From assembly GCA_044892505.1 (NCBI GenBank), contig CM097882.1, forward strand, positions 507,904,001 through 507,968,000: a DNA stretch of 64,000 bases, given 5' to 3'. The position numbers were made by a program, and so were the translations under genes. Below are positions 40,625 through 42,001 of this stretch, one piece after another (within the stretch, counting starts at the first letter, position 1; each line of letters opens with the position of its first letter). Source of the DNA: Schmidtea nova (Eukaryota). Under the pieces are notes generated by a model that was not told the origin of the DNA, ran no database searches, and was given only the letters and a program-made list of their open reading frames with translations.

Positions 40625-42001
40625 TTACGCCAACCATCCTTTTCTATCCGTTTTCTCATGCCTCTCCATTTCTATGTATAGCGTGTCCGCATATAGTCGT
40701 TGCCATAAGTTTTCTTGCATTATAAACATTGGTTCTCCCGCTGCTAGTCCGCATTCTGTTGTTGGTTTTTCGCTCGTACTCTCATGTTTGTCAGTTTCAA
40801 AGAATTTTTCTACCGATTTTCCCATACTTCTGATCCTTATAATGACTCCTACTTTCAAGGGCCATTCTATTAGGTCATCGTATTCTCCTTTACATAACGA
40901 AAAGAATATTGACACGTGTGTTCCTCGTCCTCTTCCGTCTCCATTTGGGTATACCTTCAATCTTATCTTAACCCCGTTTTTCCATAAATAAAATGGTGGG
41001 CTTATTACTGCTGTTTTAGTCATATTTCGAGCTTCTGTTAGTTTATCTCTGAAATCCGTTATTTTCCATAAGTAAGGTGCAATTGGTAAGTCCCTTCTTT
41101 CGTCAATTTCTCGTATTAATTGATTATATTGTATTTTCATTCCTTTTCCCAATTCTTCTATGGCTATTATTTTCTCTTCCATTCTTTCGCGAGTTAGTTC
41201 AAACTGCTCTCTCGTTTCTAGTAGTAAACTCATCATTATTTTATGTGATTCTACTTCCTTTTCTAGTCTCTGAATTGTCTGTTCGGTTGCTTCTGTCGTT
41301 GCGTTTGTTATCTCGACATGCATTAGTGCTGCTTCTTCTAGATGTTGGTTCATTGTTTGTCGCGTCCGCTTTTCCTTGCATCCATGCTTGTTATATGGGC
41401 ATTCTCTTGGCCTTTCAGTACATATTTTCCAATGTTCATGTAACTTTATTTCTTCTGTTATTTCGCAATTGTTTGGGCATTTGCTTGCATATTGTCCGCA
41501 CACTTTCTCCTCTGTTATATTCAAGTGTTCTTCTTCAATTTTTCTCCTTGTCTCTCGAGTTTCACAGTACTCGCATGCGATTTCTTCTTCTTTACATTCG
41601 TCCTTGTGTTGTTCTCTATTCTTCAGAATTATTGTTTGTTGACACTTCTCGCATTCGGCTCTTTTCTCTTCGCAATTTTCCATATGATTTTCTAGATTGC
41701 TTATTTGCCCTTGCCAAGTACAAGGTGTATTTACGCACTCCGTTATGGTGCTCATAATTTCTCTCTGGGTTGCTTTATCCGTTCTGGTTTCGTCCAACAC
41801 TATTCTTCCTTCTTTACATTCTGGGCATGTTGTTATTCCTGTTGCATCTAATTCTTGTATACATTTTGTACATATTCTACATCCACATATCGTTTGTCTG
41901 GGTTCTCGTAGTAAATTGTTACATTTTCCGCATGTGAGCCTCTTGCTCCATTTTCTGTTTTCTGATCTCAAAATTTCGATTATTCGTTTTTCTCTTTCCA
42001 T
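40625..42001 (-). CDS. TRAF-family protein (RING, TRAF zinc fingers, coiled coil, MATH), intronless, 458 aa
   Basis: RING C..C...PRQTICGCRICTKC..CPEC, a series of C..C/H..C fingers, and a MATH domain (YLWKITDF..SPPFY..G.KIRLKVYPNGDG.G.GTHVSIFF.L.KGEYDDLIEWP). The paralog cannot be assigned. Confidence 0.95.
   Translation of the reverse strand: MEREKRIIEILRSENRKWSKRLTCGKCNNLLREPRQTICGCRICTKCIQELDATGITTCPECKEGRIVLDETRTDKATQREIMSTITECVNTPCTWQGQISNLENHMENCEEKRAECEKCQQTIILKNREQHKDECKEEEIACEYCETRETRRKIEEEHLNITEEKVCGQYASKCPNNCEITEEIKLHEHWKICTERPRECPYNKHGCKEKRTRQTMNQHLEEAALMHVEITNATTEATEQTIQRLEKEVESHKIMMSLLLETREQFELTRERMEEKIIAIEELGKGMKIQYNQLIREIDERRDLPIAPYLWKITDFRDKLTEARNMTKTAVISPPFYLWKNGVKIRLKVYPNGDGRGRGTHVSIFFSLCKGEYDDLIEWPLKVGVIIRIRSMGKSVEKFFETDKHESTSEKPTTECGLAAGEPMFIMQENLWQRLYADTLYIEMERHEKTDRKGWLA

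What the first reader, a model, noticed from the sequence alone, without database searches (positions are those of the whole stretch)
40625..42001. Fully intact intronless TRAF with a Cys-for-His RING among partly decayed neighbours
Seen: a 458-aa ORF with no lesion, while the ORFs immediately upstream carry stops. The RING reads CGCRICTKC where host TRAFs typically have CGHRFC..C, so the His ligand is replaced by Cys. Inference: a captured, reverse-transcribed host TRAF that has adopted the element's codon bias. It may retain E3 activity or act as a dominant-negative. Intactness could reflect chance or selection.
Basis: partly seen in the sequence, partly recalled or inferred. Interest (0 to 1): 0.72.

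Follow-up and report, generated by a model that had tools for sequence, protein, structure and literature searches.

The report
Giant retrotransposon carries captured TRAF gene
This full-length immune-signalling (TRAF) gene is cargo of a giant retrotransposon with over a hundred copies in this genome; the element took it from its host, has kept it under purifying selection, and likely uses it to interfere with host cell-death and immune signalling, while the unusual zinc-finger residue was inherited from the host rather than invented by the element.

Summary
The 458-codon minus-strand ORF is real: RING, TRAF zinc fingers, coil, MATH, with Cys at the RING His position. It is an accessory gene of a Burro-type giant Ty3/gypsy LTR element: at least 111 copies, placed after a gag-env-pol-ankyrin polyprotein, and in the same slot in five element families (44-76% identical). 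Capture from the host, adoption of the element's A-rich codon bias and purifying selection (dN/dS 0.12-0.19) are supported. Three first-reader points fall. The Cys is not element-specific: 6 of 8 low-copy host TRAF RINGs have it and none has His. Those host genes are intronless too. Intactness is ordinary: 21 of 29 copies picked by a neighbouring gene are intact, with lesion rates like the neighbours'. TRAF/MATH cargo in Burro is published. Not found in my searches: the full-length downstream TRAF, its donor clade, the selection data, and conserved splice-acceptor-like sites and UGUAHAUA motifs between the accessory genes, which hint at subgenomic or trans-spliced expression. Function (likely a decoy adaptor) and expression are untested.

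The parts
40625..42001 (-). TRAF accessory ORF, 458 aa, intact
41816..41932 (-). All-Cys (C4C4) RING, codons 24-62; Cys41 (41879-41881) at the usual His position
41318..41737 (-). TRAF-type zinc fingers, about codons 89-228
41099..41317 (-). Coiled coil (TRAF-N), about codons 229-301
   Evidence: continuous helix 225-301 in the model
40667..41074 (-). MATH (TRAF-C) domain, codons 310-445
42005..42021 (-). UGUAHAUA-type motif followed by a T-rich YAG ending 3 nt before the TRAF ATG: candidate splice or trans-splice acceptor (inferred)
40510..40624 (-). 115-nt spacer with a UGUAHAUA/AATAAA site after the TRAF stop and a T-tract YAG 2 nt before the next ATG
39448..40509 (-). Coiled-coil accessory ORF, 353 aa, intact, present after TRAF in all five families
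38800..39369 (-). 189-aa accessory ORF with signal-like and transmembrane-like segments (read by eye), intact
42093..42428 (-). Small accessory ORF (about 118 aa in intact copies), broken here by one stop at codon 45; intact in 26 of 30 copies, homologues in the three other families checked
42554..45672 (-). C-terminal remnant of the gag-env-pol polyprotein (FN3-like repeats and transmembrane segments); 2 stops, 1 frameshift; copy cut off at 45672
35387..38611 (-). 3' LTR, about 3.2 kb, TG...CA ends, holding two ORFs (35858-36454, 36635-37135); ends placed by 77-83% matches to another copy's LTR ends

Best explanation
This is an accessory TRAF gene of a Burro-type giant Ty3/gypsy LTR retroelement, captured from a host clade of intronless, Cys-for-His TRAFs and kept under purifying selection across five element families, and it likely acts as a decoy adaptor that retunes host TRAF-dependent death and immune signalling in cells where the element is active. 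Shown: element context, copy number, host ancestry, codon bias, selection, and a predicted TRAF fold. Inferred: (1) because it lies behind a polyprotein of about 5,000-5,600 codons, it is likely translated from a processed subgenomic RNA made at the YAG just before its ATG, by cis-splicing or by host spliced-leader trans-splicing; (2) it would trimerise through coil and MATH and mix with host TRAFs; (3) its RING likely still binds zinc, but the family has polar residues where TRAF6 has E2-contacting hydrophobics, and its MATH groove differs from the host donors', so it would compete with or redirect host TRAFs rather than copy them. This copy is a 5'-truncated remnant and its intact TRAF needs no special explanation.
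For: 92 full-length matches at 92-100% identity among 92 scored of 3,604 candidates; 111 exact matches to a 24-nt start pattern, control 0. Element map: CCHC gag, Monjiviricetes fusion env, PR, RT, RH, IN, ankyrin, FN3-like; LTR pair 99.1% identical over 3.16 kb with a 4-bp target duplication in one copy. TRAF between polyprotein and coiled-coil ORF in four other families at 44-76% identity. Trees. Shared variants 176 syn/96 non (omega 0.19) against private 100/144 (0.50), p=1e-7, 45 copies; same pattern in families 2 and 3. Between-family NG86 dN/dS 0.12-0.17. Cys41 in 45 of 45 copies and 5 of 5 families. Model mean pLDDT 87; Foldseek matches TRAF3/2/5 MATH and the TRAF6 N-terminus. YAG 1-3 nt before the ATG in 10 of 10 TRAF and coiled-coil ORFs of five families, background 67 of 877 internal ATGs. 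CGKCNN against TRAF6 CPICLM; groove columns 410, 421, 423 differ from hosts. Heterodimers let E2-poor TRAFs modulate partners (PMC5702613, passages). Weak BCL2-like hit in the same polyprotein (Pfam E=0.11).
Against: No expression, binding or activity data. The roles of the E2-contact and groove residues are recalled, not from a call. TRAF2 and TRAF5 also lack the TRAF6 hydrophobics at those positions, and family 3 keeps the Ile, so the decoy reading is weak. All eight RING Cys are conserved, and C4C4 RINGs can be active E3s (PMC4024746, passages). The 10 acceptor cases are homologous, about two independent sites; the pattern is absent before the 189-aa ORF in family 1 and before the first ATG of the small ORF in family 3. 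Nesting beside the C3 host cluster has only 87 support, and the element rows have atypical composition. Copies were top-scoring hits, not a random sample. Neighbouring ORFs show similar selection, and RT-RH is far more constrained (dN 0.008 against 0.13).
Confidence: 0.68

Rival explanations
1. Same element gene, but an active C4C4 E3 ligase that ubiquitylates host restriction or apoptosis factors chosen by its altered MATH groove.
For: All eight RING ligands are Cys in the family representatives; the RING is about as conserved between families as other domains (56-67%); the linker-helix Arg (R80) is kept in this family (role in PMC5702613 passages); TMEM129 and CNOT4 are C4C4 E3s (PMC4024746 passages).
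Against: Polar residues at positions 26 and 28 where TRAF6 has Ile and Leu and most host donors have Ile at 26 (role recalled). The shared-versus-private test on the RING alone is not significant (p=0.11, few sites).
Confidence: 0.25
2. The TRAF docks on the cytoplasmic tail of the element's own FN3-like membrane segments and forms a self-contained, receptor-mimicking signalling unit.
For: The last 61 residues of the polyprotein follow a transmembrane-like segment and keep W-P-D, P, E and R invariant in 5 sequences from four families; TRAF lies about 550 nt downstream in the four families measured.
Against: No canonical TRAF-binding motif seen by eye in the tails (motifs recalled). One family-5 copy ends right after the hydrophobic segment. 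Adjacency is weak evidence.
Confidence: 0.15
3. This particular truncated copy has been domesticated, and the host keeps its TRAF intact.
For: All four lesions lie upstream; the three downstream ORFs are intact (P=0.08).
Against: Private changes in this copy are 3 synonymous and 3 nonsynonymous (p=0.18 against neutral); an intact TRAF is expected with probability 0.60-0.68 at family lesion rates; the 5' LTR and most of the polyprotein are missing.
Confidence: 0.05
4. An ordinary single-copy host TRAF.
For: Host TRAFs here are also intronless and mostly have the Cys.
Against: At least 111 copies with homologous element flanks and element codon bias.
Confidence: 0.01

Closest known systems
Burro/GYPSM1 giant gypsy-like LTR retrotransposons of planarians (PMC6431247, section 7 read in full; Grohme 2018 and Jurka 2007 not seen, known only through that review)
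   Same: About 30 kb; one polyprotein of about 5,000 aa with CCHC gag, in-frame env between gag and pol, PR-RT-RH-IN, ankyrin repeats, weak BCL2-like and ubiquitin-like motifs; carries a MATH/TRAF-C domain.
   Different: The review places MATH_TRAF_C inside the polyprotein (S. mediterranea) or in an upstream accessory ORF (D. tigrina). Here a complete RING-ZnF-coil-MATH TRAF is a separate ORF downstream of the polyprotein. No BIR hit in the stretches scanned. The review text does not mention the FN3-like tail, RING chemistry, donor, selection or spacer signals; its figure was not visible.
Planarian host TRAF-like proteins (PMC7586133 and PMC6109357, passages only)
   Same: Same domain order; reported as a greatly expanded, divergent family (121 MATH domains; about 150-212 contigs per human TRAF query).
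   Different: PMC7586133's main text has 0 occurrences of 'transpos'. In this genome, multicopy element families dominate the TRAF hits.
ISKNV ORF111L viral TRAF (PMC3352826, abstract only)
   Same: A TRAF-like gene carried by a virus; reported to bind TRADD and alter apoptosis.
   Different: DNA iridovirus of fish, reported as pro-apoptotic; homology to this gene not tested here.
C4C4 RING E3s CNOT4 and TMEM129 (PMC4024746, passages)
   Same: Eight-Cys RING.
   Different: Not TRAFs; activity shown for TMEM129, untested here.
C. elegans Cer1 spliced accessory mRNA (PMC3315495, passages)
   Same: A gypsy element whose spliced mRNA can carry the host SL1 leader.
   Different: One spliced product of the gag-pol region, not a row of downstream genes; shown by RNA there, only inferred here.

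Membership tests
TRAF family (TRAF2-6 type) | C-terminal MATH domain preceded by a coiled coil | tested here: met
TRAF family (TRAF2-6 type) | N-terminal RING followed by TRAF zinc fingers | tested here: met
   Foldseek 3hcs E=2e-11
TRAF family (TRAF2-6 type) | C3HC4 ligand pattern (typical, not defining) | tested here: not met
   C4C4 in 5 of 5 element families; Cys in 6 of 8 host RINGs; His in 9 of 10 rows from other animals
TRAF family (TRAF2-6 type) | Trimerisation, receptor-peptide binding, E3 activity | not testable with these tools
   no binding or activity assay possible; complex prediction unavailable
Ty3/gypsy LTR retrotransposon | PR-RT-RH-IN order | tested here: met
   sibling copies; lost from the window copy
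Ty3/gypsy LTR retrotransposon | Paired TG...CA LTRs with target-site duplication | tested here: met
   one copy examined: 99.1% over 3.16 kb, 4-bp duplication; the window keeps only the 3' LTR
Burro | About 30 kb with one polyprotein of about 5,000 aa, env in frame between gag and pol | tested here: met
   overlapping open stretches of 2,068 and 3,333 aa in a family-2 copy; env Pfam E=5e-71
Burro | Ankyrin repeats and MATH/TRAF cargo | tested here: met
Burro | BCL2-like and ubiquitin-like motifs before env | tested here: inconclusive
   Pfam Bcl-2 E=0.11, Ubiquitin_4 E=0.094 at the expected place; Bcl-xL E=1.5
Burro | RT groups with published Burro-1 to -4 sequences | not testable with these tools
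SL-resolved operon | Spliced leader joined at the acceptor of downstream genes | not testable with these tools
   only DNA signals; no RNA data

The most novel reading that the evidence does not exclude
An env-bearing giant retroelement runs an operon-like cassette of accessory genes that the host's spliced-leader machinery cuts into separate mRNAs under Pumilio-type control, delivering a captured TRAF decoy in stem cells; and much of the reported planarian 'TRAF expansion' is retroelement cargo rather than host immune genes.
Probability: 0.3. Interest if true: 0.75.

Novelty: new variant of a known kind. Interest (0 to 1): 0.5.

Why it matters
The review of Burro elements proposed that their apoptosis and ubiquitin domains meddle with host systems and called for a test. 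This gives a defined, full-length gene with an identified host donor clade and evidence that selection has kept it across five families, so the idea can be tested by RNAi and biochemistry. It also warns that TRAF counts and TRAF RNAi or expression results in planarians may be confounded by hundreds of element copies. The spacer signals give a concrete prediction for how genes behind a 5,000-codon polyprotein are expressed. The Cys-for-His RING is a feature of a host lineage's TRAFs, which is of interest to RING biochemists but is not a sign of element innovation.

Tried and rejected
Plus-strand reading: many stops. My first idea, antisense cargo relative to the RNase H at 45690+: rejected, that stretch belongs to other elements and TRAF is sense to its own pol. 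Domestication of this copy: not supported. Public protein searches found no close relative: 15 hits at 23-38% identity, the same 15; the Atlas gave generic TRAF clusters. A DNA pattern for C-G-H-R/S-F/Y-C gave 6 matches against 6 for the control, and none of the 3 read in frame showed a TRAF RING; this misses other residues after His and intron-split motifs, so His-type host TRAFs are not excluded. Expression: no RNA holder listed; laying four runs of unknown kind showed no joint at the candidate acceptors among the joints displayed and is uninformative. The HMMER search of representatives was still queued and was not collected. YN00 failed for most pairs through saturation, so NG86 is quoted. 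Earlier-findings look-ups returned nothing. The original Burro paper was not held under the id tried.

Full report
Observation. The ORF lies on the minus strand at 40625-42001 and gives 458 aa without a stop. It has MATH and TRAF zinc-finger domains, and its N-terminus aligns with the RINGs of TRAF6, 5 and 2, with Cys41 opposite the His of CGHRFC. An AlphaFold2 model from a 20-row alignment has mean pLDDT 87 (pTM 0.39, so domain packing is uncertain) and matches TRAF3/2/5 MATH domains and the TRAF6 N-terminus. Upstream, the window has 2 stops and 1 frameshift in 1,034 codons and 1 stop in a 111-codon ORF.

Context. The gene is repeated. All 92 candidates scored, of 3,604, are full-length matches at 92-100% identity, 7 with a stop; a 24-nt start pattern has 111 exact matches against 0 for its control. 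Longer copies show a CCHC gag, a Monjiviricetes-type fusion protein, PR, RT, RH, IN, ankyrin repeats and FN3-like repeats with transmembrane segments in one polyprotein, then a small ORF, TRAF, a 353-aa coiled-coil ORF, a 189-aa ORF and the LTR. One copy has LTRs 99.1% identical over 3.16 kb and a 4-bp target duplication. The window copy keeps the 3' LTR (35387-38611) and is cut off at 45672, where other elements begin. The upstream 'membrane proteins' are therefore the broken end of the polyprotein. This architecture matches the Burro elements of planarians (PMC6431247, section 7). I infer a planarian host from that match alone; no host marker was tested.

Families and selection. Four further families carry a TRAF in the same slot, at about 76, 70, 52 and 44% identity. 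In family 1, 55 of 59 loci aligned in one frame and 45 remained after removing near-identical ones. Variants shared by several copies were 176 synonymous and 96 nonsynonymous (omega 0.19); variants private to one copy were 100 and 144 (0.50); p=1e-7. Families 2 (32 copies) and 3 (8 copies) agree. Between families NG86 dN/dS is 0.12-0.17, with dS at or near saturation. The coiled-coil and 189-aa ORFs show the same pattern, the polyprotein end a weaker, non-significant one, and RT-RH is far more constrained. The copies were top-scoring hits, which lowers the private omega.

Intactness. Among 29 copies picked by the coiled-coil gene, TRAF is present in 29 and intact in 21, at 0.83 lesions per 1,000 codons; neighbours in copies not picked on their own score show 0.79-1.32. 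An intact TRAF is thus expected 60-68% of the time, and the skew in this copy has P=0.26. Its private changes are 3 synonymous and 3 nonsynonymous (p=0.18). Selection acted on the element lineage; nothing marks this copy.

Origin and the RING. Searches with an oyster TRAF2-like protein and then with host hits found low-copy TRAFs in three clusters. Eight with a RING were examined; one RING-less frame and two duplicates on small contigs were left out. Seven run from RING through MATH in one open frame and the eighth stops inside MATH. Twelve element probes hit nothing but TRAF in 5 of 6 ten-kb host stretches, the sixth having a weak LTR-ORF hit about 1.7 kb away. At the His position six have Cys, one Asn, one Ile, none His, whereas 9 of 10 rows from other animals have His. 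Element TRAFs form one clade (100) that groups with these host genes (99/98; 98, nested beside one cluster at 87). Fourfold-site A is 0.60-0.67 in element TRAFs and 0.66 in element RT-IN, against 0.30-0.40 in six host TRAFs. So capture and codon adaptation hold, but the Cys and the lack of introns came with the donor.

Likely mechanism (inferred). All eight RING ligands are Cys and conserved, so zinc binding is likely; C4C4 RINGs can be active E3s (PMC4024746, passages). Family 1 reads CGKCNN where TRAF6 reads CPICLM, and columns 410, 421 and 423 of the MATH domain differ from the host donors'; that these positions contact E2 and receptor peptides is recalled, and TRAF2 and TRAF5 also deviate at the RING positions. 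TRAFs poor at E2 binding can still alter partners in heterodimers (PMC5702613, passages). With a weak BCL2-like motif in the same polyprotein, I favour a decoy or redirecting adaptor that protects element-expressing cells, with an active E3 as the main rival.

Expression (inferred). In 10 of 10 TRAF and coiled-coil ORFs of five families a YAG ends 1-3 nt before the ATG, after a T-enriched stretch; 67 of 877 internal ATGs have a YAG so placed, 11 with a T-rich stretch. These are about two independent sites kept through deep divergence. The pattern is present before the small ORF in families 1 and 4, lies 6 nt away in family 2, and is absent before the first ATG in family 3 and before the 189-aa ORF of family 1. 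Spacers of 89-115 nt separate TRAF from the next ORF. UGUAHAUA occurs 7 times in the window's spacers, 0 times in the adjacent coding regions or 10 kb of polyprotein, and 7, 6, 4 and 4 times in the other families' spacers, almost only on the sense strand; window background is 0.26 per kb. That this is the Pumilio element is recalled; UGUA plus AAUAAA as 3'-end signals, or a branch-point context, are alternatives. Flatworms resolve operons by spliced-leader trans-splicing (PMC12582326, passages) and Cer1 makes an SL1-bearing spliced mRNA (PMC3315495, passages). No RNA evidence was obtainable.

What is known. MATH/TRAF-C cargo in Burro is published, inside the polyprotein or upstream. Ten literature searches listed no paper on a full-length downstream Burro TRAF, its donor, its selection or the spacer signals. 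The two original Burro descriptions, the review's figure and all supplements were not seen and may show part of this. A greatly expanded planarian TRAF family is reported (PMC6109357 and PMC7586133, passages); here element copies dominate the hits, which makes element origin of part of that expansion a testable suggestion, not a result for those species. I also saw passages of PMC8532177, PMC11410931 and PMC4558846 and the abstract of PMC3352826.

Verdict. A real, selected accessory gene of a known kind of giant retroelement, in an arrangement not found in my searches. The headline oddities, the RING Cys and the intactness, are explained by host ancestry and chance. New variant of a known kind; interest 0.5.

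Noticed in passing
window 46065-47487 (+); L203:1440-2918: A separate multicopy element (40 scored of 1,978 candidates, 91-93% identity) with a 493-aa open frame in other copies whose C-terminal half looks by eye like a DEDDh exonuclease; no Pfam hit.
   Followed up: partly
window 45690-46034 (+): Isolated gypsy RNase H fragment at the point where the Burro copy is cut off.
   Followed up: no
window 24621-30999 (-): Polinton/Maverick-like remnant: adenovirus-type protease (Pfam E=1e-6) and a 900-aa ORF with an endonuclease VII motif; similar stretches lie in or beside several Burro copies.
   Followed up: no
window 57291-62965: Compact gypsy element with 300-nt direct repeats 97% alike, an intact 973-aa pol and a 489-aa gag-like ORF.
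   Followed up: no
window 31642-32271 (-) and 50072-50246; L049:605-2821: Argonaute/Piwi-domain fragments, a 175-nt piece duplicated at 99% in the window; a 739-aa PAZ-PIWI open frame lies beside another TRAF-bearing copy.
   Followed up: no
window 35858-36454 and 36635-37135 (-): Two ORFs inside the 3.2-kb LTR; homologues of the first occur in other families' LTR regions. The window LTR matches other family-1 LTRs only patchily (66-89%), suggesting LTR exchange.
   Followed up: partly
L154 against L032: A family-2 copy has an env 98% identical to family 1's while its ankyrin, FN3-like and TRAF regions are 37-52% identical: modular recombination between families.
   Followed up: no
G000:C1:590.84-590.94 Mb: Four near-identical units about 33 kb apart, each with a Burro copy and a polyubiquitin-like fragment; segmental duplication or assembly artefact.
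   Followed up: no
L199:531-564 (-): Candidate primer-binding site after the 5' LTR resembling a tRNA-Pro site (resemblance recalled).
   Followed up: no
G000:C2:452.92-453.00 Mb, C2:416.82-416.83 Mb, C3:43.80-43.90 Mb: Three clusters of single-frame host TRAF genes with His-less RINGs, some apparently truncated.
   Followed up: partly
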